A stretch of 64,000 nucleotides of DNA from Octopus vulgaris (taxonomy: Eukaryota): NCBI GenBank assembly GCA_951406725.2, contig OX597833.1:58156001-58220000 (forward strand), read 5' to 3'. Made by a program: the position numbers and the translations under genes. Shown in pieces: positions 1 to 50,544 of the stretch. The number at the start of each line of letters is the position of its first letter. The first letter of the stretch is position 1. The notes below the pieces were generated by a model that had not been told where the DNA came from, did no database searches, and worked only from the letters and a program-made list of their open reading frames with translations.

Positions 1-28
1 TTGAATGCTTGTTACTATGTTCTCATTC

Positions 29-6998: not shown

Positions 6999-7160
6999 GG
7001 CGCAGGAGTGGCTGTGTGGTAAGTAGCTTGTTTACCAACCACATGGTACCGGGTTCCGTCCCACTGCGTGGCACCTTGGGTAAGTGTCTTCTACTATAGC
7101 CTCGGGCCGACCAATGACTTGTGAGTGGATTTGGTAGACGCAAACTGAAAGAAGCCCGTC

Positions 7161-7221
<61 letters not shown>

Positions 7222-15530: not shown

Positions 15531-16907
15531 ATTGAGGCCAATGTTATCAAATAACCTCGACTCTCCAAATTATTGGCCTTCTGCCTGTTGTAGAAATTAC
15601 TTATGATGATAAATTGACAGAATCGTGAGAACGTCAGACAAAAGGACTTGCGGCACTTGTTCTCACACTCCACATACAGGTTTCAAATTCCGTCTCTTGC
15701 AAAACTTCAACCCCGCTTAAAAAGCAGTTCACCTTTTGATGTCTCTTTTACGTTCAGATAAGAATATAAAAAAATTTGTTTTCGAAGACGGTTAGCAATC
15801 ATTTGAGAATCTTGGTACTCTATCTATCCGAGTTCGCTTTTCATGACAAGGAAGTTTTTCTTTTCTGTACTTCATTTCCTTCAGAGAGTCCACTACATTG
15901 ATTACAGATTTGAGGTATTGCAAACCCTTTCTAACTGTCAGCAAACTCGTTTTCGAGGAATTATTGTTGGACCAGCAGATCGAAAAACTTTTTAGGCTCT
16001 TTCAAGTCTACTGGATCGATATCAGAAGTTAGATGGATTCCTTTAAGTGAGAAATCATTTTTTTTAAATCTTATTTTGCTTAGTTTTTAAAACCAGGCTT
16101 TATTTCGTACGAACAAACTTGAGGGTGATATGCGTCAAGAAATTTGGAGAAATTCTTCGAGGCTGACGACCAGTCCAGGTTCGATATATGCATGATAGAG
16201 AAAAAGTCAGTCATCCCTCTACTGAGTGTTCTGAGTTCTTGCTCGATGGTCACGTTGTCCTCATGAGATGCATGAGCATAGAATTCGATGACACAGCCCT
16301 GTGAGAAATCGGAGTTAACTTAGCGGTACATCAACTGAGCCTTTCTAACAAGAACCTTTTGCGGATATACCATTGGAAAGGCTTAGTTGATGTACCACTA
16401 ACAAGAACCTTTTGCAGACATGTCCTCATGAAGTAGTCTCAGAAGTTTGAATTTCTGCCGGGAATCAATAGTTCGCTAGAGAAAACTACACTGACTACTA
16501 TCAAATGCCTTCGTCGTTTCTATGAAGCTTAGATACGGCGGTCGATGAGGTTTCCAACACTTTTGCTGTTGTTGAAAATATCAGACGTTCCACACGATGT
16601 TTTAAATTTTAAATCATCGATTTTGCGACTGGAATATGTTGGTCTCTGTGAAATGTAAATCGATTGTTAAAAATTCGAACTTGAACTTGTCCTGCCCCCC
16701 ACCATAAATAAGCCTGCTTTGTCTTTTTCTTGTTGACGGTAACAATCGGAGAAGTTTTCTTCTTGGGTCTCGATCATGACAAGTCGATGAAATCCTTCTG
16801 GGAGAAGAATACGCCTCTCGTTTATAGACATCAATTGGAATGCTGTTTATTTCGGTGGGTTTATTACTATTTAAACTTACAATCGCAAAGAAAACTATCA
16901 TTTTTAT

Positions 16908-17298
16908 AGTAGCTTGCTAACCAACCACATGATTCCGGGTTCAGTCCCACTGTGTGGCATCTTGGGCAAGTGTCTTCTGCTATAGCCCCGGGCCGACCAA
17001 TGCCTTGTGAGTGGATCTGGTAGACGGAAACTGAAAGAAGCCTGTCGTATATATGTATATATATATGTGTGTGTGTGTGTGTATATGTTTGTGTGTCTGT
17101 GTTTGTCCCCCTAGCATTGCTTGCCAACCGATGCTGGTGTGTTTACGTCCCCGTCACTTAGCGGTTCGGCAAAAGAGACCGATAGAATAAGTACTGGGCT
17201 TACGAAAGAATAAGTCCCGGGGTCGATTTGCTCGACTAAAGGCGGTGCTCCAGCATGGCCGCAGTCAAATGACTGAAACAAGTAAAAGAGTAAAGAGT
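16908..17298 (+). mobile_element. SINE family B, 5'-truncated
   Basis: Matches 6999-7430. Confidence 0.9.
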
Positions 17299-18126
17299 AT
17301 AGTCGTGTGATAGAGACGTTCATTCTGCAACTTGTTTCGGCTTCTGTCGTCCCACTGCAGCGTGGCAATATGAAAAATATCAGGTTAACTAAAAGCTTCA
17401 TAGTTCAACGTGGTAGATGTCGTTGCGTGTGTAATTGATCGCGACAGACTGTGATCCTGTTCAACACCAATGCCTGCGCCCCCGCGGTTTCTTTTCAGTA
17501 GAGTTTGCCAAGTAACGAGCATTCAAAATTCTTCTGCTTCCTGAGATAAGGTCTTCCAATAGGTTTCAAAGGGCGTAGAAAGGGACCGCAATCTCCCTAT
17601 TACTTATTTGGTTTAGGAACTGTAATTTCAAACATTTTAACAGCTGAACGATTTTTTATGTGTGTGAGAAAAGTACTATTAATATTTAAGCATTTATTAC
17701 CCATAAGGATATTCTTATTAATGTTAGCTATATTATTACGGTTTTTGTTCCTGTTACGTTCTGGGTTCAAATCTCACTGAGATCAACTTTATTTTATCGA
17801 CTCCAAAAGAATGAAAAGCAAAGTACCAGTTCATCACTGGGGTCCATGTCGGCGTCTTTCTCCTCTACTTAAAACTGATGCCTTTGAGCCGAGATTTAAA
17901 AGAATTATTTTTACGGCATATCTGTTAGATCGTCTTGGAGTATTTACATCGATCCATTGCATTTCTTTGTTCAAATCCTGAAGTTAGTTTGTCTTTCATC
18001 CTTCCGGTGTTGATAAAATCCGGTATAAGGTTCGATTTAGTCAACTACTTCCCTTACATTTCAGGTTTTCAGGTGAGCTGGTAGTCGTTACTGCGCCGGA
18101 AAAAATGCTTTGCGGTATTTGTTTCC

Positions 18127-23166: not shown

Positions 23167-24210
23167 CACGACGGGCTTCTTTCAGTTTCCGTCTACCAAA
23201 TCCACTCACAAGGCTTTGGTCGGCCCGAGACTATAGTAGAAGACACTTGCCCAAGGTGCCACGCAGTGGAACTGAATCTGGAACCATGTGGTTGGTAAGC
23301 AAGCTACTTACCACACGGCCACTCCTACGTGCATATTTGAATATTTAAAAAAATTAATTCGTTTTTACTGCGGTTTTTCGTTTCTATAAATATTACAAGT
23401 TAATAGACCGGGATTTTCCGTTTGGCTGCTAACACGCAGTGGGACTGAACCCGGAACCATGTGGTTGGTAAACAAGCTACTTACCACACAGCCACTCCTG
23501 CGGCTTGTTGTGTCTTATGTGTTTATTGTTGAAACGTTTGTCAATCTCTGATGGGTTTTGCCGCACTCTGTAAGAAGGTATATAATGTTCAAAGTGCCGT
23601 GAGGTGGGATCGAACCAAAAGCATGTATAGTTGCGAAGCGAACCTTTTAATCATAATGGCAAATAGTGTATGTGTTTGTGTGTGTATAAATTATTTAACC
23701 CAATGTCGCCAGCTCTGATCAGGTGAGGTTAGTTTAATTCGGAGCGGTGACGCCACCCACGCTCACAAGCTGCTGTTAGCAGCCAAACGGAAAATCCCGG
23801 TCTATTAACTTCCTTGTAATATTTATAGAAACGAAAAACCGCAGTAAAAACGAATTAATTTTTTTAAATATTCAAATATGCACATAGGAGTGACCGTGTG
23901 GTAAGTAGCTTGCTTACCAACCACATGGTTCCGGATTCACTCCCACTGCGTGGCACCTTGGGCAAGTATCTTCTCCTATAGCCTCGGGCCGACCAAAGCC
24001 TTGTGAGTGGATTTAGTAGAGAGAAACTGAAAGAAGCCTGTCGTATATATGTGTGTATCTGTCTTTGTCCCCCTAACATCGCTTGACGACTGACGCTGGT
24101 GTGTTTACATCCCCGTAATTTAGCGGTTCGGCAAAAAGAGACCGATAGAATAAGTACTACGCTTACAAAGAATAAGTCCTGGAGTCGATTTCCTTGACTA
24201 AAGGCGGTGC
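22932..24210. repeat. Two family B SINEs in inverted orientation sharing the same roughly 105-bp unique flank
   Basis: 23330-23433 is the reverse complement of 23774-23883. Confidence 0.85.
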
Positions 24211-24562
24211 CATCTTACAAACTATAGAATTTTCTCAATAAAGCCAAGAGAAAAAGATGTTTTAAACTTCGTATACTGGTAGAATGTGTTTATAAAATTT
24301 TTTAGTTACCTAGAAATTATGTTAAAAACTGCCGTTCAAACCGAAAAGATCCAGATCCAAAAATGATACTCAATAAAGAAAACACTTAGTAACGCTCAAA
24401 TGCTTTTGACTTATACCCCGATGTCTACGGGCTAAAGAGTGGCTATTAGATAAATCCGAGTGGACAGATATGGCGATAATCATGCAAGCAAACAGATAAA
24501 ACAGCTTCGAGAGAAAACAACGAATTAGAATATTCAGACGATGAATATTCATGTATCTTTGG

Positions 24563-24941
24563 AAGCACTCCGTCGATTACGACGACGAGGGTTCCGGTTG
24601 ATCCGATCAACGGAACAGCCTGCTCATGAAATTAACGTGTAAGTGGCTGAGCACTCCACAGACACGTGTACCCTTAACGTAGTTCTCAGGGATATTCAGC
24701 GTGACACAGAGAGTGACAAGGCCGACCCTTTGAAATACAGGTACAACAGAAACAGGAAGTAAGAGTGAGAGAAAGTTATGGTGAAAGAGTACAGCAGGGA
24801 TCACCACCATCCCCTGCCGGAGCCTCGTGGAGCTTTAGGTGTTTTCGCTCAATAAACACTCACAACGCCCGGTCTGGGAATCGAAACCGCGATCCTACGA
24901 CCACGAGTCCGCTGCCCTAACCACTGGGCCATTGCGCCTCC
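24563..24941 (-). mobile_element. tRNA-derived SINE family C (GGAGGCGCAATGGCCCAGTGGTTAGGG)
   Basis: tRNA-like head with GGTTTCGATTCC; 3' half shared with family D. Related copies at 27570-27831 and 45235-45533. Confidence 0.85.
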
Positions 24942-25092
24942 ATTCATGTATAAATATATAGATAAATATATAGTACTAAGTGAGATAGGGGTTAGTTAAT
25001 AAATTATATGAATTGGTATTATCTGGAAGTTGATGATTGAAAGAAATCTATTCCTCCATTTTCTTATTTTGTATATATAAATATATATATAT

Positions 25093-25497
25093 AGGTGCAG
25101 GAGTAGCTGTGTGTTAGGTAGCTTGCTTACCAACCACATAGTTCTGGGTTCAGTCCCACTGCGTGGTACCTTGGGCAAGTGTCTTCTACTATAGCCTTGG
25201 GCCGACCAAAGCCTTGTGAGTGGATTTGGTAGATGGAAACTGAAAGAGGCCCGTCGTATATATGTATATATATATATATATATATATGTGCGTGTGTGTG
25301 TATGTCTGTGTTTGTCCCCCCATCATCACTTGACAACCGATGGTGGTGTGTTTACGTCCCCGTAACTTAGCGGTTCGGCAAAAGAGAACGATAGAATAAG
25401 TACTAGGCTTACAAAGAATAAGTCCTGGAGTCGATTTCCTCGACTAAAGGCGGTGCTCCAGCATGGCCGCAGTCAAATGACTGAAACAAGTAAAGAG
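25093..25497 (+). mobile_element. SINE family B
   Basis: Matches 6999-7430. Confidence 0.9.
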
Positions 25498-25931
25498 AGA
25501 GTGAGAGAGATTTATATATTAAGAGAGCAAACCTACACAGAGTATAAAGACACAGAAAATGAAGCGAAAAAGGTATGGTGTTACAGGTTCTACAGCCGTT
25601 TCTGGGGGCTGAAAATTGCTTCATAATATTGGCAGATGTCGTTCGTAAAAATAAGCAAACAGTAGTGGAAGTGTATAACCATTAGGTTGATCCGGCCGCC
25701 GTCTTCAGGAGGTTTGACTAATATCTCGTTTTGATAATATCTCGACTTGGCCAACACCTCAGTTTCGACCACAATTACCGGTTGACCCATTATTTTCTAT
25801 GTAGAATTGTATAGGCAAAAATAGCGTAACCGGGGATAACAAGCGTTTCTTTTCTTGCATGATAGCCTTAATTCGTTGCCCAATTCAACTCCTCTGCACG
25901 GCCCGGGGTCAAACCTCTTGTCTGGCTATAG

Positions 25932-28146: not shown

Positions 28147-28352
28147 TGTTACGACTTTTACTTCCTCTAAGCGATCGGATTCGGTCGTCTTCTCCGGGCC
28201 ACCAGAGAACGCGCCGACGACGGCGCGGAACGCTGCCGCGCGTAAGCGGACTCGTCGGCCAGATCCGAGGACCTCACCGGACCGTTCGATCGGTAGTAGC
28301 GACGGGCGGTCTGTACAAAGAGCAGGGACGTGATCGACGTGGGCTGATGACC
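28147..28352 (-). rRNA. 18S rRNA 3'-region fragment (helix 44 region), non-functional copy
   Basis: Minus strand reads GTCATCAGC...ACGTCCCTGCTCTTTGTACAGACCGCCCGTCGCTACTACCGAT...TAGAGGAAGTAAAAGTCGTAACA, the conserved eukaryotic SSU motifs. Both ends are truncated. Confidence 0.93.
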
Positions 28353-28366: not shown

Positions 28367-28411
<45 letters not shown>

Positions 28412-28417
<6 letters not shown>

Positions 28418-28594
28418 GTTATCGCCATACTAATATGGCATTCTTATAAAAATAAGAATAAAGCTGTCCGCTTATTAGCTCCATGAGGCCATCGCCTTAA
28501 GTTAGCTATTTGATACACAAACTGTATCCATATAACCTTCGAACAAGGGAGGTCAGTCGCTCCACACTACTTGACCGGCAGCTACAGACGCGTT
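28412..28594 (-). repeat. 183-bp terminal direct repeat, 3' copy
   Basis: Identical by eye to 33962-34144 (offset 5550); abuts (TA)n. Confidence 0.97.
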
Positions 28595-28622
28595 TCGGGG
28601 TATTGCCCCTTTTCAATGCAGC
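28581..28622 (-). ncRNA. Minimal type I hammerhead ribozyme, U3-A8 variant
   Basis: GCUGCA-UUGAAAA-GGGG(CAAUA)CCCC-GAAA-CGCG-UC^UGUAGC: 6-bp stem I, 4-bp stem II and palindromic stem III. Predicted cleavage between 28587 and 28586. Confidence 0.85.
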
Positions 28623-28905
28623 GTAGCCAGACCAGTAGGTGTCGCTTCTAAAATCTTTATTATGATTATAAAAATCTTACAGAGATAGTACATTACAATA
28701 CAAAACATAATTACAAAAAGTTTACGTTGTTCGTTTGATATTTACATATGTTGATTATTGATTATGATACTAGACTTTACTTTTCTCCTTTTTGTTTTTA
28801 AATTAAAAATGATTTTGGCCAGCTTGGTATATCACAGTCAGGATTCTTACCCGACAGCCTAAGAGCCCAGAGACTATTTTCTCCCTTCATGATGACCAAG
28901 CAGGG

Positions 28906-31900
28906 TTACTCACACCCACCTTTTTTATCACATCCTTCCATCGATTCACATACTTTTTCTGTGTCAGGTTCCTCTTCTCTAAATCCATCTTGCTCTTTAG
29001 ATGGTATCTGAAGTATTTTAACATACCATATTCCAGAGACAAAGGATCCTGACACCAAACCTTCCAATCTAGTTCTCCACACACACTCTTTCAGTACTGC
29101 CACCGTACAGTGAAAACAAGCCTCACCTTCCTTTGAGAGTCCAGCTGGCGGTATCATCTTTATTATAGAACCAGCCGATAGCTGTACTCGTCCCAGATGC
29201 GACAACACGTGTTCTACGTAACTTATTAAGCCTGACAGCTCCTGACAATGTACAAAAGCGTGCTGGACGGTTTCATCGTCCAACCCACATCTTGGACATG
29301 TCGGTGGCATTGACATTCCATGCCTATATAACTTATCGCGAACAGGTAGAGCATTCCTATAGCACTGCCAAGTCAGGGATTTTTGGTAATTGTCCAAATA
29401 CCCCGGCTTGAAAGTCTTCTTAAACAGGTCGTATAGTTGATCCTCATCGAACCCTAGAGCCCCTCTTAGGATGTCGTCATTTTTTGCCTCTACCATCCTT
29501 CTATAAAATGTCGAGGTGGTATTCCCGCAGCCGGCTTTGCCTATCTTGTGGATCAGCCAGAGTGCCTGTCGGCACTCTTTCTGCCATAAAGTCAGATTCC
29601 GTCTTTTAATGAAACCGGGTTTAAATCTCTCCATAGAGTCCGGTTGCGGGAAGAAATTATCTGCCAGCGGACTCCACACCTTATCACCTTCCAGGTGAAA
29701 CCAGAGATGTCTCAGTCTCAGCGCATGCCTGCGCATCATTAACCAAGGCATCCCCAGCCCACCCTTTAGTGGTTCCTGGCAACACACGGAGCGCCTTACA
29801 AGTGGCTTTCCTCCCTTCCACAAAAAGCGGAAAAGGAGTCGATCCAACTTGCTTAGCCACAAATCGGGGCAAGGCACGACAGTCAGGCGATAGGTGATTA
29901 CAGATGCTATAAACACCTGTACCACCTCCGCCCTCCCTTTCAAGGAAAGATGCCTTCCGGACCACTCCCGAACTATGGCTTCTACCTTGGTCACTACCTC
30001 GCTCCAATTTTTCTCCGTCTGGGAGTCTGAACCAAACCAAACTCCAAGCAATTTAACAGGACCATATGTCCAGTGTCCAACAACACTGGACGATATCGGC
30101 TTGTTCCTCCAGGTGCCGAGGCGCAAACCAGTGGACTTGTCCTTGTTAACTTTTGCCCCAGCCACCGCTTCGTATCTTCGGAGAGCACCTTCTACACGAG
30201 TTAGTTGTGCTTCGTTGGACACGATGAAGGTGACGTCATCCGCATACGCAGAAACAGACTTACCGCATCCGATTTCATTAGGATTGCATCTCACCGTCTC
30301 CAACTCCCGCAGCAATGGCTCAAGAGCCAAAACGTACAGGAGAGGGGACAAGGGACATCCTTGACGAACTGAACGCTTAATCGAAAACGGTTCCGTTAAG
30401 TAACCGTTTATCTGGACTGTGGATTTGATACCGCTGTACATAGCTGATATCCACCCGCGAAAGTCAGGACCTAGCCCAGCCGCTTCGAGAACCGTCGCCA
30501 GGTACTGATGATCTACCCTATCAAATGCTTTACTTTGGTCTAAATGGACCAATGCCCCTCCTTTGCCGGCTAATTGCCCAACCCTGTCTATAGTGTAGCG
30601 TAGAAGGTGAAGATTATCTTCGATCGACCTTCCTGGGATTGCACATGTCTGTGCCTTTCCGACAAGTTTTTCCATGACGACCTTCAACCTTTCTGCTAAC
30701 ACCTTGGCCAAAATCTTTAACTCTACATTAAGTAGAGTTATGGGCCTATAATTACTAATATTATCCCCCTTGCTCGGGTCTTTCTGGATCAGCGTCACAA
30801 CTCCCCGGCTCACAGAACTGGGAATCTTCCCATTCTGTTGCCAGTTTGCGTAGACGCTTGCCAGTATGTCCCCGAACAAGTCCGGCATACAACAATAAAA
30901 CTCATAGGGCAGACCATCCAGTCCCGGCGACTTTTCCCGGGCGCATTCAGCCAAAACCCCTCTTACCTCCGCGGGAGTAATCGGTCCTTCACAGCGTTCC
31001 GCTCTGCGTGGCGAGAGCCGATGCCCACCAGCTAGGAAGTTCTGTAAGTCCTCCCCTCGCTCGAGTGGATCGCCCTCCCCAAACAACCGAGCGAAATGCT
31101 GTTGAAAGACCTTCTGTATCTCCTCCTGTCCATAGATTTTGCGTCCCTGTTCGTCAGTTAAAGACTTAATAGAGGACTTTTTGCCCTTCTGACTCTCCAC
31201 ACGACGTGCCCATCCGGCAACATTAATACCTTCTCGTTTCACTGCACGTAGCTTAGCTCTGACTCTACATCCTTCATGCTTGGCATTGAGGTGACGGTAC
31301 AAGATCGTTCTCTCTGCTAACACTCTAGATGCACAGCCAGATCCCATTGCCTCGTCTAAGTTCTTAACTAAATCGCCCTCTATTCTAGTCCTATCTAAAC
31401 TTAGCTGGTTGCTAAATCTAATGGACTCGAAACGGATGGCTCTTTTGAGGGCGATCCACCATCTATTATTAATGATGGTTCCACATAATGCCCTCTGGAC
31501 TAATTCCATAATCCGGTTACGGAAAGCTTCACAAGCCAAAATAGACTTGTTCATTTTCCAGTATCCGGGTCCCTGTCTATGGCATTTATCTACATGTACC
31601 TCACACGTCACTAATTTGTGATCCGTGTAAGGCACAATACAAAATTGTGGACAGCTAATGCTATTCCTATCTCGTTCTTTAACAAATACCCTATCTATAT
31701 ACGATCTGCGTGAGCCGTCATTGTTACTCCACGTCCACTGTGGAATGCTCGGCTCATCCATTCGAAACCGATCTACTAGATTAAGGCTCGTCAGTAGACC
31801 CTTGAGGCAAGGATTTCCCCTTCTATCAGACGAGCCCACACTATCTATCCGCGCATCGATGATAGTGTTGAAATCCCCTACCAATACTACCGTTTTAGAC

Positions 31901-32286
31901 GTCACTAGAAAGTGCTCCAAGTTCCGATAAAAACCAGTCTGCCTACCCTCATTAGGAGCATAAACAGCTACCAACCTGAAGGACTGCTTACTCACGTGAG
32001 TTACATCGAGGACAACCAGCCTACCTTCTGGGTCCATAAAGACAGTACTTACCTGTAAGTCCAAGTTCTTCTTGATAAGGACTGCCACGCCTGCACTTCC
32101 TCCTCGGCTAGGAGAAATAAATTTCTCGTAACCATTGAGAAGATGCGAGAACGCTTGGGTTCCTCTCATCTTGGACTCGGTGACAATGGCTACATCTATT
32201 CTGTGTGTCCTGAGGTCGTCCAGCAAGCAAGCCTGTTTCCATTTCGACCCCATTCCACGCACATTTATACAGCCCAACTTAATCAT
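28906..32286 (-). CDS. LINE ORF2: AP-like endonuclease, reverse transcriptase and C-terminal zinc finger (Tx1-like)
   Basis: 1126 aa. APE motifs INVRG, VYAPN, GDFN, IDRVF, TDHKLV. RT motifs SPGLDG, YRPITLLN, DQSKAFDRVDH, VRQGCPLSP, YADD. Zinc finger CPRC...ETVQHAFVHC. Probable frameshift near 29030. Confidence 0.96.
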   Translation of the reverse strand: MIKLGCINVRGMGSKWKQACLLDDLRTHRIDVAIVTESKMRGTQAFSHLLNGYEKFISPSRGGSAGVAVLIKKNLDLQVSTVFMDPEGRLVVLDVTHVSKQSFRLVAVYAPNEGRQTGFYRNLEHFLVTSKTVVLVGDFNTIIDARIDSVGSSDRRGNPCLKGLLTSLNLVDRFRMDEPSIPQWTWSNNDGSRRSYIDRVFVKERDRNSISCPQFCIVPYTDHKLVTCEVHVDKCHRQGPGYWKMNKSILACEAFRNRIMELVQRALCGTIINNRWWIALKRAIRFESIRFSNQLSLDRTRIEGDLVKNLDEAMGSGCASRVLAERTILYRHLNAKHEGCRVRAKLRAVKREGINVAGWARRVESQKGKKSSIKSLTDEQGRKIYGQEEIQKVFQQHFARLFGEGDPLERGEDLQNFLAGGHRLSPRRAERCEGPITPAEVRGVLAECAREKSPGLDGLPYEFYCCMPDLFGDILASVYANWQQNGKIPSSVSRGVVTLIQKDPSKGDNISNYRPITLLNVELKILAKVLAERLKVVMEKLVGKAQTCAIPGRSIEDNLHLLRYTIDRVGQLAGKGGALVHLDQSKAFDRVDHQYLATVLEAAGLGPDFRGWISAMYSGIKSTVQINGYLTEPFSIKRSVRQGCPLSPLLYVLALEPLLRELETVRCNPNEIGCGKSVSAYADDVTFIVSNEAQLTRVEGALRRYEAVAGAKVNKDKSTGLRLGTWRNKPISSSVVGHWTYGPVKLLGVWFGSDSQTEKNWSEVVTKVEAIVREWSGRHLSLKGRAEVVQVFIASVITYRLTVVPCPDLWLSKLDRLLFRFLWKGGKPLVRRSVCCQEPLKGGLGMPWLMMRRHALRLRHLWFHLEGDKVWSPLADNFFPQPDSMERFKPGFIKRRNLTLWQKECRQALWLIHKIGKAGCGNTTSTFYRRMVEAKNDDILRGALGFDEDQLYDLFKKTFKPGYLDNYQKSLTWQCYRNALPVRDKLYRHGMSMPPTCPRCGLDDETVQHAFVHCQELSGLISYVEHVLSHLGRVQLSAGSIIKMIPPAGLSKEGEACFHCTVAVLKECVWRTRLEGLVSGSFVSGIWYVKILQIPSKEQDGFREEEPDTEKVCESMEGCDKKGGCE

Positions 32287-32557
32287 CGATGAATGAAGAA
32301 AGTTTGTTACTTACGGTTGTGAGAGGGAGCATGGCAGCTTTTGTCTGCCTGCCTCCCCACACTCTCCGTTGTTGCTGGGCATTTAACCGGCGTTGCCACC
32401 GGGCTCTGGGATGGAGTGGCTGCCGGGCTAATATTCAATTTTCCAGCTATCACCTCTTGTGTGACATCTTTAATCAGGTTGTCCCTCACGTGTAGTTGGA
32501 AGAGTCTCTCCTTCCATTCCTCCTCTCCAACCTTCGCATACCTCCAATCCGGGTTTT

Positions 32558-33664
32558 TTATTCCGATGATTTGAAACATTTTATGTTTGGTTTCGCCTTT
32601 ATGTACCAAACTACTCTCTCGTTTTTTGTGTTATAAGCAATGCACCTATCGGTTTTTTTTAATCCTTTTAAAGTTGGGGGCTGGGGTTTAATGAAATGCT
32701 GGCCTACAAAAGTAGTGCCAGCGGGGTGGGATTGGATAATTTTTTTGTGTTGCTCTTCTGCGTTTGTTTTTCTTTTTGTTTGGGGTGGGGAGTCTGGGGT
32801 ATTGGATTTCTTCCTTTTGTTGGTTACAGTCGTATATTCCATCACTTCCAGTTCTTTTCCATTTGATAAATTATTTTCCACCTCGTTTTCGTTTTCGTTT
32901 TGTTTTCCATTCATTTTCTTTTCCTCCTTTTGACTTTCATTTTGCTTTTTCCGGGTATTCTCTTTTGTTGTTGCTGTGATGTCTGCTTTGTTCTCCACAG
33001 CGGTTTGAATGGGGGCATTAACGGGTTTTTTCTTTTTGCACTCTGAGCGGACGTGACCCTTCTGCCCACATTTGAAACATCTGGGCCTACGTCCCTCCAC
33101 CGATACCCGCATAGTGTGTCCATCCCCCACGAAGACCCTGTATGGCAAACTCTCCAGCGTTGCATTGTCAGCTTGAACGATCATTTCAAGCTGCTGACCT
33201 TTCCAAAATTTTGCCTCTTTCATCCTCATGTTTAAAATGTTTAATTTCTCTTCTACGTCGAATACGACCGCTGTTGCTGCCCACATTACATCGTAACCTG
33301 TTGGTATATCCTCTATTGTTACCTTAGCTGTTCTGCGCCCTAAGTACGTGGGCAGCAACAGGATGTCTGCACTCTTCAACGTTTGAGTTGAAATTTCCTT
33401 CGCTATGCTAGCCGACTCGAAATGCGCTTCAATAGTAGCGCTTCTCACTCCTCGGCCAACATAGCGAACCTTGTTCCAAATTGGTGCCATGCACCGTTCT
33501 ACCAATTCATTTTTTACATCTGCAATCTTTTTTTCCTTAATATTATATACCTTATAAATTACCGTCTTCTCACGGATTGCTTGTAAGGTGTCAGGGGGCG
33601 GTATTATTCTCGTTTCTTCTCCATTCCTTTGTATGAACTTTCTGAACTTGAAGAGATCCCCCAT
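32558..33664 (-). CDS. LINE ORF1, gag-like nucleic-acid-binding protein with CCHC knuckle
   Basis: 368 aa with CFKCGQKGHVRSEC and a basic, low-complexity tail. Probably continues to 32307 through a frameshift. Confidence 0.88.
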   Translation of the reverse strand: MGDLFKFRKFIQRNGEETRIIPPPDTLQAIREKTVIYKVYNIKEKKIADVKNELVERCMAPIWNKVRYVGRGVRSATIEAHFESASIAKEISTQTLKSADILLLPTYLGRRTAKVTIEDIPTGYDVMWAATAVVFDVEEKLNILNMRMKEAKFWKGQQLEMIVQADNATLESLPYRVFVGDGHTMRVSVEGRRPRCFKCGQKGHVRSECKKKKPVNAPIQTAVENKADITATTKENTRKKQNESQKEEKKMNGKQNENENEVENNLSNGKELEVMEYTTVTNKRKKSNTPDSPPQTKRKTNAEEQHKKIIQSHPAGTTFVGQHFIKPQPPTLKGLKKTDRCIAYNTKNERVVWYIKAKPNIKCFKSSE

Positions 33665-33961
33665 TGCTACTTCCAGTTCTATAACATTGCCTCCAACACT
33701 TCCGAAAAACTTTGTTTCTCCTTTGTATCCTTTTGCTTTCCATTATTTATAACTTCTCCCATCTCGGGAAAATCAGAATTTGACGTTAAGTCAAGATCCA
33801 TATTAAAATGCAATGACTTGTCACAAGAGACAAGATAAAAATTAATTCCACACTGAATTAAAGTTCATATATAAAAAGAAATTTTCTACCTGTTTTCAAT
33901 AATAGAAATATTAAAATTACTAAGTCTCTCTAAAAGAGAACAACGGCAGCGTTCCCGAAAA

Positions 33962-34144
33962 ATAATAGTTATCGCCATACTAATATGGCATTCTTATAAA
34001 AATAAGAATAAAGCTGTCCGCTTATTAGCTCCATGAGGCCATCGCCTTAAGTTAGCTATTTGATACACAAACTGTATCCATATAACCTTCGAACAAGGGA
34101 GGTCAGTCGCTCCACACTACTTGACCGGCAGCTACAGACGCGTT
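33962..34144 (-). repeat. 183-bp terminal direct repeat, 5' copy
   Basis: On the minus strand it begins AACGCGTC^TGTAGC directly after (TA)n. Confidence 0.97.
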
Positions 34145-34185
34145 ATATATATATATATATAATCTTGCACAACAAATATTTAAAC

Positions 34186-35116: not shown

Positions 35117-35706
35117 CAGTGCCCCGAAACCAGTATGCCGCGGCACACCAGTGTGCCACGAGACGATGCTAGGTGTGCCGCAGTGTAATCTGAATATAAT
35201 TGTTTTCCCCTATACTTTTAGTTATATTTTTTAGTTCAGGTGTGCCGCCGAATTTTGCAGGAGTGGCTGTGTGGTAGGTTAGCTTGCCTACCAACCATAT
35301 GGTTCCGGGTTCAATCCCACTACGTGGCATCTTGGGCAAGTGTCTTCTGCTATAGCCTCGGGCCGACCAATGCCTTGTGAGTGGATTTGGTAGACGGAAA
35401 CTGAAAGAAGCCCGTCGTATATATGTATACATGTATATGTTTGTGTGTGTGTATGTTTGTGTGTCTGTGTTTGTCCCTCTAGCATTGCTTGACAACCGAT
35501 GCTGGTGTGTTTACGTCCCCCGTCACTTAGCGGTCCGGCAAAAGAGACCGATAGAATAAGTACTGGGCTTACAATGAATAAGTCACGGGATCGATTTGCT
35601 CGACTAAAGGCGGTGCTCCAGCAAGGCCACAGTCAAATGACTGAAACAAGTAAAAGAGTAAAAGAGTATAAATGTGCCGCAATTGAAAACAGGTTGCGGA
35701 GCACGG
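35117..35706. mobile_element. hAT-like MITE interrupted by a family B SINE (35257-35668)
   Basis: Ends CAGTGCCCCGAAACC / GGTTGCGGAGCACGG with repeated GTGTGCCGC subterminal motifs. Imperfect 8-bp TSD GTCTAAAG / ACCTAAAG. Confidence 0.6.
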
Positions 35707-36099
35707 ACCTAAAGCAGACATTTTTCAGGCGCTCTTAAAATACTATTGTGGGTCACCAATTTACTATTTTGTGGCGTGGATCTTCCCCTCCAAAAAAAAA
35801 AAAAAAAAGAAAAATCTTATTTAGTCCCTAAGGAGCCGAATGAACTCGGTTGAGAAACACTCGTTTAAACGATAATTATTACATGTCACCATACAGGGAA
35901 AAATTGAAGTAATTATTAAATTATTATCATTTTTTTTTTTTTGACAACGGTAACTTACTGTATTTGATGGTATAACAAATGCCCAGGTAATATTAGAGGC
36001 GATCCTAATCTCACATATTCAGGAAAAGAAGAGTTTTGTGCACTAAAACATGTAATATAGGCCCAACTTTGCATTAAAAGGACCTGAAGTGATTTATCA

Positions 36100-36170
<71 letters not shown>

Positions 36171-36580
36171 AGATGGAAGATATGTGTGTGTGACCGACCA
36201 TTAGCTTGATCTCACGTAAAATCAATATTTTTCATCCGATTTCGTTCACACTTGATACATACATCACTTATATTCCACAGATGGTTGTACACTCTTGAGA
36301 GCTTTCACTTATGGAGTAATATGGAGTATGGAGCTTCTAGGGTCAGAAGCTAAGAAAAACATATATATATATACATATATACGACAGGCTTCTTTCAGTT
36401 TCCGTCTACCAAATCCACTCACAAGGCTTTGGTCGGCCCGACGCAGTGGGACTGAGCCCGGAACCATGTGGTTGGTAAGCAAGCTACTTATCACACAGCC
36501 ACTCCTGCACCTATACATATATATATATATATATACATATATAAAAATATATATATATATGTATGTATGTATGTATGTAT

Positions 36581-36653
<73 letters not shown>

Positions 36654-36710
36654 ATATATATATATATAAATATATATATATATATTAAAAATATATATAT
36701 ATATATATTT

Positions 36711-36825
<115 letters not shown>

Positions 36826-36858
36826 CAGGATTTGTAAGACTGTTTATAGATAAATGCA

Positions 36859-37190
36859 TTAGCCAATTAAATTTCAGCATAGTACGACTTCCACATTTTA
36901 CTTTTGTATTTTTGTAATTTTTCAATGTTGCATTTTACAATATTACATGTACTTTCATGTTTTATAGAAGTAACAAAATATTTTTTTAAAAAAACCACAT
37001 TTCAAACAGAAGCAGTATGTTTTATTGTTATTAACGAGAATGCTTTTATTCGAAAAGTCGTGTATTTTACTTTTGTCATTTCAGCAAAACAAGGTAGGAC
37101 TTGTAAAATTGCCATACATAATATTATTAAATTGTAAAGCTATAAAAATAAAATGTAGAAATCAAACTATGCTGGAGTTTACTCGAGTAA
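36859..37190. mobile_element. Old fold-back element or MITE
   Basis: Degenerate inverted ends CAGCATAGTACGACTTCCACATTTTA / TAAAATGTAGAAATCAAACTATGCTG. Confidence 0.5.
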
Positions 37191-37192
37191 TA

Positions 37193-37406
37193 TACGAGGG
37201 CGTACTGAAAACTTCCTGGCTTTGGGTAACAGAACATATAGTCAAAAGAGTTATTATGATTTTATTTAACATATTTACCTCTCAGAGTTACACACTTGTT
37301 GCAGTGATCCTTCAGTTTTACTAAGTCCTGTAAAAGGACTCGGAAGGTTGGGCCTCCAACCAGGCCTTTCGCGACACCCTTAAAGGAGCTTTTCAACATC
37401 CCTTGT
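37193..37406. mobile_element. Tc1/mariner-type MITE
   Basis: TACGAGGGCGTACTGAAAACTTCC / GGAGCTTTTCAACATCCCTTGT inverted ends in a TA context. Confidence 0.65.
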
Positions 37407-37417
37407 GTATGTATATG

Positions 37418-37449
<32 letters not shown>

Positions 37450-37491
37450 TGTATGTATGTATGTATGTATGTATGTATGTATGTGTGAATG

Positions 37492-37548
<57 letters not shown>

Positions 37549-37551
<3 letters not shown>

Positions 37552-37944
37552 CGCAGGAGTGGCTGTGTGGTAAGTAGCTTGCTAACCAACCACATGGTTC
37601 CGGGTTCAGTCCCACTGCGTGGCACCTTGGGCAAGTGTCTTCTGCTATAGCCCCGGGCCGACCAATGCCTTGTGAGTGGATTTGGTAGACGGAAACTGAA
37701 AGAAGCCTGTCGTATATATGTATGTGTGTTTGTTTGTGTGTCTGTGTTTGTCCGCCTAGCATTGCTTGACAACCGATGCTGGTGTGTTTATGTCCCCGTT
37801 ACTTAGCGGTTCGGCAAAAGAGACCGATAGAATAAGTACTGGGCTTACAAAAAGAATAAGTCCCGGGGTCGAGTTGCTCGATTAAAGGCGGTGCTCCAGC
37901 ATGGCCGCAGTCAAATGACTGAAACAAGTAAAAGAGTAAAGAGT
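37549..37944 (+). mobile_element. SINE family B, full length
   Basis: Matches 6999-7430. Further copies at 39309-39731, 44188-44600 (minus), 44783-45117, 46386-46765, 47718-47920 (minus), 55290-55457 and 57890-58007. Confidence 0.92.
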
Positions 37945-37958
37945 ATATATATTATGTA

Positions 37959-37994
<36 letters not shown>

Positions 37995-38259
37995 CATAAG
38001 ATGGCCAGTATGGGAATAAAAACCTACAAAGGTAATAATTATTATTGAAATTATAATTTAAAGCTTCTAAGAGATACCACCGCGCTGGAAATAGCAGCTA
38101 AAATTTGATTCTAAAACCACATTAAACGTTCATACAACACCAGGAGAGAAGACAAAAGGACAAAATAAACTAGCAAAAATTTACTGGATAATTCAAGATC
38201 CCGGATTTATATACATACATACATACATACATACATACATACATACATACATACATACA

Positions 38260-38291
<32 letters not shown>

Positions 38292-38422
38292 AGTTCAGCA
38301 AAAATTTAGATTCAAATGAATATGGTACTTAATTTAGATGCACCAGCATTTTGTATGGTGTTATCTATAAAATCCGTGGGGTGATTATAATCAAAATAAG
38401 CAATAAGAAGGACTCCGGCAAT

Positions 38423-38508
38423 TTGGTACGATCGTTTCGTACTACATCATTTTATTAAATGTTGTTAGTATTACAACATATTTAAGATGCTGAGTACTCA
38501 TCAGCCAA
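38423..38508 (-). ncRNA. Type I hammerhead motif with long stem II, in a Penelope-like end (38291-38600)
   Basis: UUGG-CUGAUGA-GUACU...AGUAC-GAAA-CGAUCG-UA^CCAA. An inverted partial copy lies at 38538-38598. Confidence 0.75.
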
Positions 38509-39132
38509 TTATAGAGGTTTTCCATTAATACAAAAAAATGATGTAGTACGAAACGATCGTACCAAATTGCTGGAGTCATTCTTGTTGTTTATTTTGATAT
38601 ATATATATATATATATACCGGAGTAAACACATAAATGTGAAACAAGGTGGAAAAAAGAGTACTCAAATACCAGTGGTAGAGTAATATGCTTTATTTTCTG
38701 CTGCTTAAAATAAAGTATATATATATATATATATATAGGTTATCAGTGACTTTAAAGTTTAACCTGTCTCTCATCTCTCTATGTGCGACGTAGGTGAAAC
38801 TTCGGAGTTACTATCGACCTGTATTTTTTCTCTTTTTTATTTGTAAATAATAAAGTCTTATACGTTGACATGTAATGCATTGAGGTGAATGTAAACAAGT
38901 TTTGCAGAGCGTTGTTGAGTAACAAAAATATAAACAAAGAGAGAAAAAGGAAAGAGAAAGGATAGAAAAGGAAATAATATGATTGCGGCTGCGGCGGTGG
39001 TCGTGTTGGTGGTGGTGGTCGTCGTCGTCTTCGTTGTGGTGGTGGTTGTGGTAGGGAAAGACATTGATAGAACAAGGAAAACAGTGACCGTTGCTTAAAT
39101 AAAGATAATAATAATAATAATAATAATAATAA

Positions 39133-39170
<38 letters not shown>

Positions 39171-39439
39171 ATAGCGTTAATCCAATAAAATAAATAAGAA
39201 GAATAAAGTTAACAGGCATACAAGGCTTATTTTATTGTATTTATTTAGGCAATTATCAAAATGTTTCCACTGCACGAAAGTATGTATATATATATATATA
39301 TATATATATTGCTAACCAACCACATGGTTCCGGGTTCAGTCCCACTGCGTGGCATCTTGGGCAAGTGTCTTCTACTATAGCCCCGGGCCGACCAATGCCT
39401 TGTGGGTGGATTTGGTAGACGGAAACTGAAAGAAGCCTG

Positions 39440-39517
<78 letters not shown>

Positions 39518-39797
39518 TTGCGTGTGTGTGTGTTTGTCCCCCTAGCATTGCTTAACAACCGATGCTGGTGTGTTTACGTCCCCGTCACTTAGCGGTTCGG
39601 CAAAAAAGACCGATAGAATAAGTACTGGGCTTACAAAAAGAATAAGTCCCGGGGTCGAGTTGCTCGATTAAAGGCGGTGCTCCAGCATGGCCGCAGTCAA
39701 ATGACTGAAACAAGTAAAAGTGTAAAAAGAGTATGGCGGTGCCCCAGCATGGCCACAGCTCATAAGCTGAAACTAGAATCAATCAATCAATCAATCA

Positions 39798-44189: not shown

Positions 44190-45658
44190 TTTACTCTTTA
44201 CTCTTTTACTTGTTTCAGTCATTTGACTGCGGACATGCTGGAGCACCGCCTTTAATCGAGCAACTCGACCCCGGGACTTATTCTTTTGTAAGCCCAGGAC
44301 TTATTTTATCGGTCTCTTTTGCCGAACCGCTAAGTAACGGGGACATAAACACACCAGCATCGGTTGTCAAGCAATGCTAGGGGGACAAACACAGACACAC
44401 AAACACACACACGCAAATATATGTATACATATATACGACAGGCTTCTTTTCAGTTTCCGTCTACCAAATCCACTCACAAGGCTTTGGTCGGCCCGAGGCT
44501 ATAGCAGAAGACACTTGCCCAAGATGCCACGCAGTGGGACTGAAACCGGAACCATGTGGTTGGTAAGCAAGCTACTTACCATGTAGCCACTCCTGCGCCT
44601 ATGTATATATATAATATAATATAAGAAAAGAATTTGAAATGCAGGAGTCATATTAAAGTATTTATTTACTTAACCGGTTTCATTTATTTAAAAAGATTTT
44701 CAAAAGTAGAGAGCGAGGCTCTGTATATCCTCTGTGGTGGCAAAAATTAGTTTACGTAAATGTATTCAAATAAAGTTACAGAGTGGCATCTTGGGCGAGT
44801 ATCTTCTGCTATAGCCCCGGGCCGACCAATGCCTTGTGAGTGGATTTGGTAGACGGAAACTGAAAGAAGCCTGTCGTATATATGTATATATATGTATGTG
44901 TGTGTGTGTGTTTGTGTTTGTCTCCCTAGCATTGCTTGACAACCGATGCTGGTGTGTTTACGTCCCCGTAAATTAGCGGTTCGGCAAAAAGAGACCGATA
45001 GAATAAGTACTGGGCTTACAATGAATAAGTCCCAGGGTCGATTTGCTCGACTAAAGGCGGTGCTCCAGCATGGCCGCAGTCAAATGACTGAAACAAGTAA
45101 AAGAGAGTAAAAGAGAGTCTTTGACGATGATAAGAAAAGGTTTGAAGCTTTGTGTGTCCTTTGCGATGAGTCAATAAATAATTTACATAAAAACATTCAA
45201 ACCTGGTAATGATTTTTTAAAATAAATATATGTTGTTCCTTCTCGCGACATGCCTGGCTCATAAGTGCTGGTTTTCCCGGTTTCCTTAGCGTAAAGGTTC
45301 CCCACCTGGACAAGACGCTGGTCTGTCGCAGGTGAGCTGCAAGATGCAGGAGGAAAGAGTGAGAGAAAGTTGTGGCGAAAGAGTCAGCGGAAGTTTCGCC
45401 ATTACCTTCTGCCGGAGCCGCGTGGAGCTTAGGTGCATCGCTCATAAACACACACACTGCGCGGTCTGAAATTCGAACCCGCGATCCCTCGACCGCCTGT
45501 CCGCTGCTCTAACCACTAGGCCATGTGCTTCCACTTTTGTAAATATAAGAAGATAAGAATTAGTCTACATGAATATATCCCGATCAAGTAGTAGTCTTTG
45601 ACAAGAAGATAAAACTCTACACAATCTAAAAGTCACAAGAAACACTCACAGACACACG

Positions 45659-45721
<63 letters not shown>

Positions 45722-46070
45722 GCACATACATGTATATACACACGCGCATGCACACACACACGCGTGAGTACACACACATATATACACATACACCCTAACG
45801 AAAGCAACACACACACACACTTATATGCACACATACGCACACATGCACACCACCCGACAAACGTAATACACACATGCACACACACACGTACACATACAGC
45901 ACCCTGGCAAATATAACACAGACATACACACACATACTCGCAACACACACCACCCTTATAAATATAACACACACATACACAGGCCTACATATACACGCGT
46001 GCACACGTACACACACACACACCGCCCTGACTACCAAAACACACACATACATGCGCACATACACATGTAT

Positions 46071-46112
<42 letters not shown>

Positions 46113-47034
46113 TCGTAGACACACACGTACACTTAAGGAGGCGAGCTGGCAGAAACATTAGCACGCCGGGCGAAATGCATAGCAGTATTTCGTCTGCCGT
46201 TACGTTCTGAGTTCAAATTCCGCCGAGGTCGACTTTGCCTTTCATCCTTTCGGGGTCGATTAAATAAGTACCAGTTACGCACTGGAGTCGATGTAATCGA
46301 CTTAATCCGTTTTTCTGTCCTTGTTTGTCCCCTCTATGTTTAGCCCCTTGTGGGTAGTAAAGAAATAATAAACACACGTACACATAGGAGTGGCTGTGTG
46401 GAAAGTAGCTTGCTAACCAACCACATGGTTCCGGGTTCAGTCCCACTGCGTGGCACCTTGTGCAAGTGTCTTCTGCTATAGCCCCGGGCCGACCAATGCC
46501 TTGTGAGTGGATTTGGTAGACGGAAACTGAAAGAAGCCTGTCGTTTATATGTATGAGTTTGTGTGTCTGTGTTTGTCCCCCTAGCATTGCTTGACAACCG
46601 ATGCTGGTGTGTTTACGTCCCCGTCAATTAGCGGTTCGGCAAAAGAGAGACCGATAGAATAAGTACTGGGATTACAAAAAGAATAAGTCCCGGGGTGGAT
46701 TTGCTCGACTAAAGGCGGTGCTCCAGCATGGCTGCAGTCAAATGACTGAAACAAGTAAAAGAGAAAGAGAGAGAGATACACACAAATGGAACACCCTCAT
46801 ACATGCATATATGTTCACACACACGCAAACTCGCTAACCACATTTCCCAGAAAACACATACACACACGCAGACATACACACATACACTTACACACAAATA
46901 CACACCGTTCTTTACTTATGAGTCGTACATACAAACCCCAAAACCTTTCAACAGTCAAAAACGATGACCAAATTAAAGGCACTCAAAACCTTTTTATCTA
47001 TCGTCAACTACTTTTTGACAAACGTGACTACCAT

Positions 47035-49160: not shown

Positions 49161-50034
49161 CTGGGTTCAGTCCCACTGTGTGGTGACTTGGCATGTGTCT
49201 TCTGCTGTAACCTCAGACCAACAAAAGCCTTCTCAGTGGATTTTGTACATATATACAGGCATACATATATATACATGCATACGTACATATTCGGCATAAA
49301 CACTCTACCACTACAACTAATAACTGTTGGGAACACTTTCAAACCTGCCTTACATTCGAACCGGAATCTCAACGCCCGAGTTTTCCATCTGAAGTTAATC
49401 TCTCTCATGATCCAGCTTTAGACAAAGAACTATACGAAATAGTTAAAGCAAACATGGTACATGGTCCATGTGGGCGTGGATTCAACATAAACACACCATG
49501 CTTGAAGGACAGCATATGTTCAAAAAGATTTCCAAGGAGGTTCCTACAAGAAACTCAGACAGGTGCTGATGGGTATCCATCATACAGACGCAGAAAACTG
49601 GGTTCAGTCCCACTGTGTGGTGACTTGGCATGTGTCTTCTGCTGTAGCCTCAGACCAACAAAAGCCTTCTCAGTGGATTTTGTACATATATACAGGCATA
49701 CATATATATACATGCATACGTACATATTCGGCATAAACACTCTACCACTACAACTAATAACTGTTGGGAACACTTTCAAACCTGCCTTACATTCGAACCG
49801 GAATCTCAACGCCCGAGTTTTCCATCTGAAGTTAATCTCTCTCATGATCCAGCTTTAGACAAAGAACTATACGAAATAGTTAAAGCAAACATGGTACATG
49901 GTCCATGTGGGCGTGGATTCAACATAAACACACCATGCTTGAAGGACAGCATATGTTCAAAAAGATTTCCAAGGAGGTTCCTACAAGAAACTCAGACAGG
50001 TGCTGATGGGTATCCATCATACAGACGCAGAAAA
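49161..50034 (+). repeat. 437-bp tandem duplication (SINE relic plus start of the Rep fragment)
   Basis: 49161-49597 repeats at 49598-50034; matching ATGs at 49454 and 49891. Confidence 0.95.
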
Positions 50035-50430: not shown

Positions 50431-50432
50431 AG

Positions 50433-50544
50433 GTAGATAAATAGATATATAAATAGCTAGATAGATCGATAGATAGATAGACAGACAGATAGACAGGCAG
50501 ACACAAAGATAGATAGATAGATAGACAGATAGACAGGCAGACAC

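What the first reader, a model, noticed from the sequence alone, without database searches (positions are those of the whole stretch)
28412..34144. L1/Tx1-clade LINE enclosed by identical 183-bp direct repeats that carry a hammerhead ribozyme
Seen: a near-intact APE-RT LINE without a poly(A) tail is bracketed by two identical 183-bp repeats (28412-28594 and 33962-34144), and the whole unit sits in (TA)n. On the coding strand the 3' repeat overlaps a complete minimal type I hammerhead, GCUGCA-UUGAAAA-GGGG(CAAUA)CCCC-GAAA-CGCG-UC^UGUAGC. Its C3-G8 pair is replaced by the compensatory U3-A8. Known: minimal hammerheads in terminal repeats characterise Penelope-like elements and retrozymes, while LINEs such as R2 and RTE are mostly associated with HDV-like ribozymes. 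I know of no described L1/Tx1 element with hammerhead pseudo-LTRs, but I could not search for one. Inference: this may be an autonomous LINE whose RNA is ribozyme-processed, possibly as a 5550-nt cleavage-to-cleavage unit that could circularise.
Basis: partly seen in the sequence, partly recalled or inferred. Interest (0 to 1): 0.92.

Follow-up and report, generated by a model that had tools for sequence, protein, structure and literature searches.

The report
Tx1 LINEs hijacking hammerhead retrozyme promoters
The ribozyme-bearing repeats are not the ends of this jumping gene: they belong to a small self-cutting parasitic RNA element, and the jumping gene's family keeps inserting at the predicted transcription start of such elements and of U1/U2 snRNA genes, apparently to borrow their promoter.

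Summary
The 183-bp repeats, the APE-RT LINE and the hammerhead are real, but the pseudo-LTR reading is wrong. The repeats are two neighbouring units of a 363-nt tandem retrozyme (RZ1, about 1,080 target sites in this genome). A 5.37-kb Tx1-type LINE sits inside it, with a 17-bp target duplication 32-33 nt upstream of the ribozyme core. All 21 young 3' ends (at least 97% identical) use this site. The window copy alone has lost about 198 bp at its 5' junction, which creates the LTR look. Sister subfamilies insert at the first base of U1 and U2 snRNA genes and of three other hammerhead retrozymes. In all four retrozymes the best or near-best match to this genome's U1/U2 upstream motif lies 57-60 nt before the insertion site. 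Leaders carried between target types show that LINE RNA starts at the target site. Best reading: these LINEs insert at +1 of snRNA-type promoters and switch targets quickly with almost no change in the endonuclease loop. LINE-plus-retrozyme RNA is sometimes also copied as retrozyme cargo. Cleavage, start sites and targeting mechanism are untested. I found no description of this in ten literature searches.

The parts
33891..34144 (-).
33885..33896 (-). One-off deletion junction (break at 33891/33890, about 198 bp lost): removes most of the snRNA-type upstream motif, the upstream target duplication and the first 127 bp of the LINE
28650..33890 (-). Tx1-type LINE body (positions 128-5369 of a full-length copy, 98.9% identical), no poly(A), AATAAA at 28661-28656
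32307..33801 (-). ORF1, CCHC zinc knuckle; broken by indels in this copy (about 490 aa from the first ATG in intact copies)
28890..32286 (-). ORF2: APE endonuclease, RT, zf-RVT; open for 1126 codons, last about 40 codons out of frame
28633..28649 (-). Downstream copy of the 17-bp target duplication = predicted +1 to +17 of the retrozyme transcript
   Evidence: +1 inferred
28560..28649 (-). Canonical type I hammerhead of RZ1 (core 28616-28587, U3-A8, 4-bp helix II, 2-bp palindromic helix III); predicted cut 28587/28586
28412..28649 (-). Downstream piece of RZ1 (unit 1-237), ending at one of the retrozyme's two preferred 3' ends in (TA)n; holds the 3' repeat 28412-28594
28370..28413 (.). (TA)n insertion site of the retrozyme array, left side
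34145..34160 (.). (TA)n insertion site of the retrozyme array, right side

Best explanation
Two nested parasites. The outer one is a non-coding tandem hammerhead retrozyme (RZ1) that lands in (TA)n with Penelope-like inverted structures. Each unit carries an snRNA-type promoter element about 57 nt before the base of its ribozyme hairpin (motif shown; promoter function inferred). The inner one is a Tx1-type LINE that nicks at that +1 base and inserts by target-primed reverse transcription with a 17-bp duplication (shown by junctions). It thereby sits 17 nt behind the host promoter, so its RNA starts with the target's first 14-17 nt (shown by leaders carried to other targets) and needs no promoter of its own (inferred). 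Read-through gives a target-derived 3' tail; in retrozymes the hammerhead would trim it about 60 nt past the LINE end (inferred). I think position is set by the promoter-bound start site, and choice of promoter mostly by pairing of tail and leader with the nicked DNA (about 0.45), ahead of endonuclease sequence preference (0.3) or tethering alone (0.25). The window copy is a decayed member whose 5' deletion mimics LTRs.
For: Same 17-bp duplication at 16 full-length copies, a 5'-truncated copy (L034), a 70-bp copy with 10 bp of it (L066) and three LINE-duplication-LINE tandems. 21 of 29 3' ends of this type lie at the RZ1 site, all 21 at least 97.4% identical; the other 8 (82.5-96.8%) start ATAC (7) or ATAT (1), one being a whole U1 gene (Fisher p 2e-7, copies not independent). 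About 1,082 target sites against 21 junctions. Sister LINE-2: 12 of 15 printed 3' ends (18 loci examined) at +1 of RZ2. LINE-3: of 12 ends, 5 at U2 +1, 3 at RZ3, 3 at RZ3b, 1 elsewhere. U1/U2 upstream motif in 28 of 37 genes examined; its best match in the units lies at -58, -60, -59 (rank 1 of about 700 in all six weight-matrix settings for RZ2, RZ3, RZ3b) and at -57 for RZ1 (rank 1-3); RZ3b was found after the model was built. Leaders: U1 1-17 on L078 at a non-U1 site; four U2-inserted copies carry a 14-nt leader one base from RZ3b +1..+14; L211 carries the start of another RZ2 variant. Endonuclease hairpin loop the same in RZ1, U1-type and most RZ2 copies, one R-to-L change in most RZ3/U2 copies. 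RZ1 clade nests inside U1-type copies at 99/95. Precedents: newt satellite 2 has an snRNA promoter (passage in PMC2220036); downstream target RNA improves R2Ol integration (PMC6795142).
Against: No start site, cleavage or transposition was measured. The first 25-nt matrix did not place the RZ1 site in its top three and gave RZ2 a weak score (P 0.48 against shuffles); the 16-nt width was chosen after I had seen the sequences, and a nearest-neighbour score ranked RZ1 second and RZ2 fifth. RZ1 departs from the ATCAGT core at two bases. The U1-type endonuclease rests on one decayed copy (11 of 240 residues differ from RZ1 type). PMC1950540 shows the loop is not the only determinant. Off-target copies keep a subfamily-specific 4-mer, which an endonuclease preference explains equally well. 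7 of 12 long LINE-2 loci have no retrozyme directly upstream of the LINE, so targeted insertion is not the only route. The tree's bootstrap had not converged and is midpoint-rooted.
Confidence: 0.75

Rival explanations
1. Cargo model: the LINE entered the retrozyme only a few times, and most LINE-bearing arrays are new retrozyme insertions copied by the retrozyme's (probably Penelope) machinery from uncut or circular LINE-plus-retrozyme RNA.
For: L058, L203 and L208 have LINE 3' parts inside head-to-head arms ending at retrozyme 3' ends, with no target or duplication upstream; L208 joins two different LINE families this way. Five more LINE-2 loci lack upstream RZ2. 16 of 21 RZ1 copies are full length. 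The six youngest loci share one RZ1 haplotype.
Against: That haplotype is the commonest among LINE-free arrays (7 of 13 sampled). A young truncated copy sits in another haplotype with a perfect duplication (L034); LINE-duplication-LINE tandems and truncated copies with duplications (L066, L210) need real targeting; at least three LINE families converge on the RZ2 site.
Confidence: 0.15
2. Targeting by the endonuclease alone: each subfamily's enzyme reads a short sequence, changes fast, and only insertions that happen to fall at a promoter start survive as masters. (A rival for the targeting step only; it accepts the nested anatomy.)
For: Off-target copies begin ATAC (U1 type) or ATCT (LINE-2); LINE-3's three targets share ATCG. 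Tx1L endonuclease is sequence-specific in vitro (PMC1950540). Subfamilies differ at 5-13% of endonuclease residues.
Against: The switch from ATAC to (A/G)GAAG came with an unchanged hairpin loop and about 3-5% DNA divergence. It does not explain why the nick is at +1 in six different targets.
Confidence: 0.3
3. One reading: an autonomous LINE with its own hammerhead pseudo-LTRs that moves as a 5,550-nt cleavage-to-cleavage, possibly circular, unit.
For: Identical 183-bp repeats and a plausible ribozyme; every young copy has the hammerhead just downstream; composite RNA is sometimes copied.
Against: The layout needs a deletion seen once; the repeat is about fifty times more common without the LINE; target duplication and true ends lie inside the retrozyme; close relatives use U1/U2; retrozyme arm starts are scattered and none of 76 is at the cut site.
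Confidence: 0.04

Closest known systems
Target-specific Tx1-clade LINEs: Tx1L (in Tx1D), Keno (U2), Tx1-Mar, Kibi/Koshi (PMC4494074, passages and section 15 read; PMC4640811, passages read)
   Same: APE-RT LINE, fixed site in a multicopy RNA gene or another mobile element, long target duplication, tandem re-insertion.
   Different: Targets here are hammerhead retrozymes and the first base of U1/U2. [quoted passage not shown] One lineage here moves among six different target sequences.
Metazoan non-LTR retrozymes and newt satellite 2 (PMC7229834, passages; bioRxiv 10.64898/2026.07.22.740005, first fifth and passages; PMC2220036, passage citing Coats 1994, which was not held)
   Same: 330-365-nt AT-rich non-coding tandem units, one type I hammerhead each, short helix III, snRNA-type promoter as reported for the newt.
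   Different: Four families in one invertebrate genome carry the motif at a fixed distance; Penelope-like inverted arms in 32 of 41 arrays; parasitised by LINEs. The passages I read mention neither feature.
Penelope-like elements with pLTR hammerheads (PMC4209133; bioRxiv 10.1101/2021.04.23.441226; passages)
   Same: Hammerhead with U3-A8 (seen in Cercyon), tandem/inverted 5'-truncated insertions, microsatellite bias.
   Different: The coding part here is L1/Tx1-type, not PLE RT with GIY-YIG; the ribozyme is canonical, not minimal; no partner PLE was identified.
R2 elements (PMC6795142, passages)
   Same: No own promoter, co-transcribed with the target, ribozyme processing, target-derived flanks aid precise integration.
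   Different: R2 encodes its own 5' HDV-like ribozyme and has a restriction-like endonuclease; here the ribozyme belongs to the target and lies 3'.
Ty3 and TRE5 targeting of Pol III start sites (recalled; PMC5911963 seen as a search listing only)
   Same: Insertion position tied to a promoter class rather than to one sequence.
   Different: Those use TFIIIB/TFIIIC tethering at tRNA genes; tethering is untested here and each subfamily keeps to its own targets.

Membership tests
L1/Tx1-type LINE | ORF1 with CCHC knuckle and ORF2 with APE endonuclease, RT and C-terminal zinc motif | tested here: met
   Pfam; PDB hits are L1 endonucleases
L1/Tx1-type LINE | RT groups with named Tx1-clade elements | tested here: inconclusive
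   Named homologues are a Ciona pol-like protein and a Chlorella RT at 25-27%; the tree places it beside unnamed U2-internal elements; no named Tx1L or Keno sequence was available
Target-specific Tx1 family | Same repeat type in more than 20% of flanks (criterion of PMC4494074) | tested here: met
   21 of 21 young 3' ends, 21 of 29 overall
Target-specific Tx1 family | TPRT marks: fixed 3' junction, target duplication, variable 5' truncation | tested here: met
Target-specific Tx1 family | Endonuclease itself nicks the target sequence specifically | not testable with these tools
   needs a nicking assay; loop comparison argues against a simple code
Non-LTR retrozyme (RZ1) | Non-coding tandem units of 150-450 nt, low GC, one type I hammerhead per unit | tested here: met
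   362-364-nt units, arrays of several copies
Non-LTR retrozyme (RZ1) | Self-cleavage and circular RNA | not testable with these tools
   only contigs of runs not on record as RNA were available
Non-LTR retrozyme (RZ1) | Shares its end with an autonomous Penelope-like element | not tested
   no genome-wide search made; the one adjacent PLE (L211) shares no retrozyme sequence
Penelope-like element with pLTR hammerhead | PLE RT with GIY-YIG endonuclease between pLTRs | tested here: not met
   APE-RT ORF2
Penelope-like element with pLTR hammerhead | Terminal repeats are the element's own ends in independent copies | tested here: not met
snRNA-type (PSE) promoter in the retrozymes | Motif shared with U1/U2 genes at the same distance from +1 | tested here: met
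   weakest for RZ1
snRNA-type (PSE) promoter in the retrozymes | Motif-dependent transcription starting at +1 | not testable with these tools
   leader carry-over is indirect support

The most novel reading that the evidence does not exclude
An APE-type LINE lineage whose target is programmed by RNA: it nicks at snRNA-type start sites, and a target-derived leader and tail (trimmed by the host retrozyme's hammerhead) decide which promoter it uses, so a single landing at a new promoter founds a new specificity without a change of enzyme; the same RNA can also travel as retrozyme cargo.
Probability: 0.35. Interest if true: 0.92.

Novelty: new variant of a known kind. Interest (0 to 1): 0.76.

Why it matters
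How site-specific LINEs change target is an open question, and it bears on using them for gene insertion. Here one genome holds several recent switches (U1-type to RZ1; among RZ3b, U2 and RZ3) between nearly identical, partly intact elements, so endonuclease, RNA-pairing and tethering models can be tested by simple swaps. The junctions also point, for the first time as far as my searches reach, to how invertebrate retrozymes are transcribed (an snRNA-type promoter at the base of the ribozyme hairpin), and they show a three-level parasitism: LINE in retrozyme, retrozyme on a Penelope-type helper.

Tried and rejected
Rfam found no hammerhead in the window or in five retrozyme loci; the call rests on my own scan, folding and variants. 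Assembly artefact: rejected, 16 loci on 11 contigs share the junction. Retrozyme as an internal deletion of the LINE: rejected once the 17-bp duplication and true ends were seen. A shared 32-nt distance to the ribozyme core as the targeting rule: rejected, RZ3 and RZ3b have 25 nt. LINE/retrozyme haplotype congruence as proof of cargo transport: not decisive. First 25-nt matrix failed for RZ1. Exact search for the foreign U2 leader found four LINE junctions and two chance-level hits; its near-exact source appeared later. Expression: no RNA holder listed; four runs were contigs only and show no ends or strand, so no evidence either way. No hammerhead beside any of 80 distant metagenome relatives, bar one weak hit inside an ORF. 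One tree run returned nothing and was redone with FastTree on 48 rows. Coats 1994 could not be read. No structure prediction was run. Earlier-finding look-ups by sequence and by place were empty.
Full report
Observation. The two 183-bp repeats are exact and sit in (TA)n. Between them on the minus strand lies an APE-RT LINE with a CCHC ORF1, without poly(A). It is the canonical metazoan type I form, not a minimal one: PMC4209133 (passages) defines canonical as helix I 6 bp, helix II 4 bp, short palindromic helix III. Variants from other loci keep every pair, including two double changes (five distinct rows, 16/500 shuffles, so modest). The host genome is 2.8 Gb in 227 contigs; I take it for an octopus-like animal from its repeats (recalled, unverified).

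The repeat belongs to a retrozyme. A search with the repeat plus ribozyme gave 967 candidates, 40 scored; of 30 loci fetched, 25 had no LINE within 1.5 kb. They are tandem 362-364-nt units (RZ1) with one hammerhead each. A 32-base pattern across the target site matches 1,082 times. Of 41 LINE-free arrays (25 picked by likeness to the window, 16 by position), 32 have inverted arms; 48 of 76 arm ends fall on two positions and 68 of 76 abut AT-rich repeats; arm starts are scattered, none at the cut site. This fits non-LTR retrozymes (PMC7229834, passages) moved by Penelope-type enzymes (bioRxiv 2026.07.22.740005, first fifth and passages; inverted structures in bioRxiv 2021.04.23.441226, passages). 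I did not find the partner element.

The LINE is inserted in it. Full-length copies are about 5.36 kb with their own ends, flanked by a 17-bp duplication of RZ1 sequence 32-33 nt before the core. There are 21 such 3' junctions at 16 loci: 16 full length, three 5'-truncated, one 70-bp fragment and the window copy. One truncated copy has the whole duplication, the fragment has 10 bp of it, and three copies follow another LINE separated only by the duplication. These are marks of repeated target-primed insertion. Several copies have both ORFs open. The window copy has lost about 198 bp across its 5' junction; that junction occurs once in the genome. With the spacer gone, the two neighbouring retrozyme units look like LTRs.

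Target switching. All 29 matches to the family's 3'-end pattern were examined: the 21 at least 97.4% identical lie at RZ1, the 8 older ones start ATAC or ATAT, one at base 1 of a complete U1 gene (Rfam 125 bits). A further old copy carries U1 bases 1-17 at its 5' end. LINE-2 (about 88% over the 3' kilobase) lies at one site of a second retrozyme in 12 of 15 printed junctions from 18 loci, with duplications in four full-length and one truncated copy. Two more LINE types use that site. LINE-3 has 12 pattern matches: 5 at base 1 of U2, 3 in RZ3, 3 in RZ3b, 1 elsewhere, with 14-bp duplications where both ends were seen. On a 950-column tree of 34 rows the RZ1 copies form a clade (99/95) inside the U1-type copies, and U2- and RZ3-inserted copies are almost identical (100/100); the bootstrap had not settled and the root is the midpoint.

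What the targets share. I fetched 17 of 18 U1 and 20 of 59 U2 matches; 28 of 37 have an ATCAGT-like core 56-61 nt upstream. The same motif lies 58, 60 and 59 nt before the LINE site in RZ2, RZ3 and RZ3b, ranked first of about 700 positions in six matrix settings, and 57 nt before it in RZ1, ranked first to third. My first matrix missed RZ1 and scored RZ2 weakly, and the narrower one was chosen afterwards; RZ3b was found later and is an out-of-sample check. Leaders give independent support that transcripts start at the site: four U2-inserted copies carry 14 extra bases that differ by one from the first 14 of RZ3b, and L211 carries the start of another RZ2 variant. An snRNA promoter is reported for newt satellite 2 (passage in PMC2220036; original not held). 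The window deletion removes most of this motif, so this copy is probably silent (inference).

Mechanism. Shown: nested anatomy, fixed junctions, duplications, leaders, motif position. Inferred: promoter capture, 3' read-through, trimming by the hammerhead, pairing of leader and tail with the target. The endonuclease hairpin loop that affects L1 specificity (PMC1950540, passages; located by alignment to L1) is the same in RZ1, U1-type and most RZ2 copies and differs by one R-to-L change in most RZ3/U2 copies (my notebook says S-to-L, which is wrong). Pure tethering does not explain why young copies ignore U1, U2 and RZ2. Pure enzyme preference does not explain the +1 rule. Off-target copies keep a subfamily 4-mer, which fits either enzyme preference or tail pairing; the latter has precedent in R2Ol (PMC6795142, passages). 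In L034 the downstream duplication matches the recipient haplotype, so the tail is not itself copied in.

Cargo route. At L058, L203 and L208 truncated LINE ends sit in head-to-head arms that finish at retrozyme ends, with no target upstream; 7 of 12 long LINE-2 loci lack directly upstream RZ2. So uncut or circular LINE-plus-retrozyme RNA is probably sometimes copied by the retrozyme's machinery; later deletion could explain some of these. Haplotype congruence could not size the route: the young copies' RZ1 haplotype is also the commonest, 7 of 13 sampled arrays.

Elsewhere. Among 80 metagenome loci with distant relatives (27-38%), five have the 3' junction at the start of U1 and two show U1 bases 1-17 at the 5' junction; they form a lineage that is not sister to this one (FastTree, 48 rows). 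None had a hammerhead nearby. An unchecked note from this scan reports Tx1 copies at a fixed site in a Penelope hammerhead end in another genome (e1-7851933); I did not test it.

Literature. Ten searches gave no paper describing Tx1 insertion into retrozymes or at snRNA start sites. PMC4494074 lists Tx1 targets including unnamed satellites and U5; PMC4640811 lists the snRNA-targeting elements known in 2015; PMC13282606 counts L1-Tx1 families in an octopus without target analysis. Figures, supplements, Repbase and subscription papers were not seen and could hold a precedent.

Verdict. The window element itself is a broken copy and not a LINE with pseudo-LTRs. The family behind it is a new variant of target-specific Tx1 LINEs, tied to snRNA-type start sites of hammerhead retrozymes and snRNA genes, with fast and testable target switches. 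Interest 0.76.

Noticed in passing
window 28147-28352, minus strand: Fragment of the 3' end of 18S rRNA (Rfam 72 bits) with a long helix-44 insertion, lying directly beside the (TA)n that holds the retrozyme; probably an older processed piece.
   Followed up: partly
L211 (reverse strand 5330-7002) and L208 3996-5830: A roughly 1.7-kb element with only an ORF1-like frame (28% to this LINE's ORF1) inserted at the RZ2 site, at two loci 87% alike: a candidate non-autonomous partner.
   Followed up: partly
L211 4727-7383: Frameshifted Penelope-like RT/GIY-YIG-type ORF with its own terminal repeats next to an RZ2 array; shares no RZ2 sequence. Family assignment is by eye.
   Followed up: partly
L262, L267, L268, L275, L322, L324: A separate Tx1-like lineage in marine metagenome contigs inserts at the start of U1 with a 17-base 5' overlap; not in the 2015 list of snRNA-targeting elements.
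   Followed up: partly
L305, L310: Tx1-like copies preceded by the first about 35 bases of U4; in L305 that U4 piece is fused to a U5 gene.
   Followed up: no
L080 (G000:C18:48996000-49005999): Stack of diverged Tx1 pieces behind a U1/U2-like upstream motif, within 50 kb of U1 genes: an old, repeatedly hit site.
   Followed up: partly
L078 901-1094 and 7485-7678: The U1-leader LINE copy lies between two convergent U2 genes.
   Followed up: no
L198/L197 (G000:C4:124.12-124.14 Mb): Two full-length LINE-3 copies head to head, one in each arm of an inverted RZ3 array.
   Followed up: partly
U1/U2 loci L216-L252 and RZ1-RZ3b: An AT-rich, TATA-like box 20-30 nt upstream of +1 in U1, U2 and the retrozymes; polymerase type not determined.
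   Followed up: no
window 27-1334: Tandem array of a 112-bp unit, about 98-99% identical copies.
   Followed up: no
window 6976-7446, 16862-17303, 23858-25512, 35232-39734, 44691-46775: Many copies of one interspersed SINE-like repeat (families D16, D17, D19).
   Followed up: no
window 49211-50433: Two open frames 437 bp apart begin with the same translation: a short tandem duplication.
   Followed up: no
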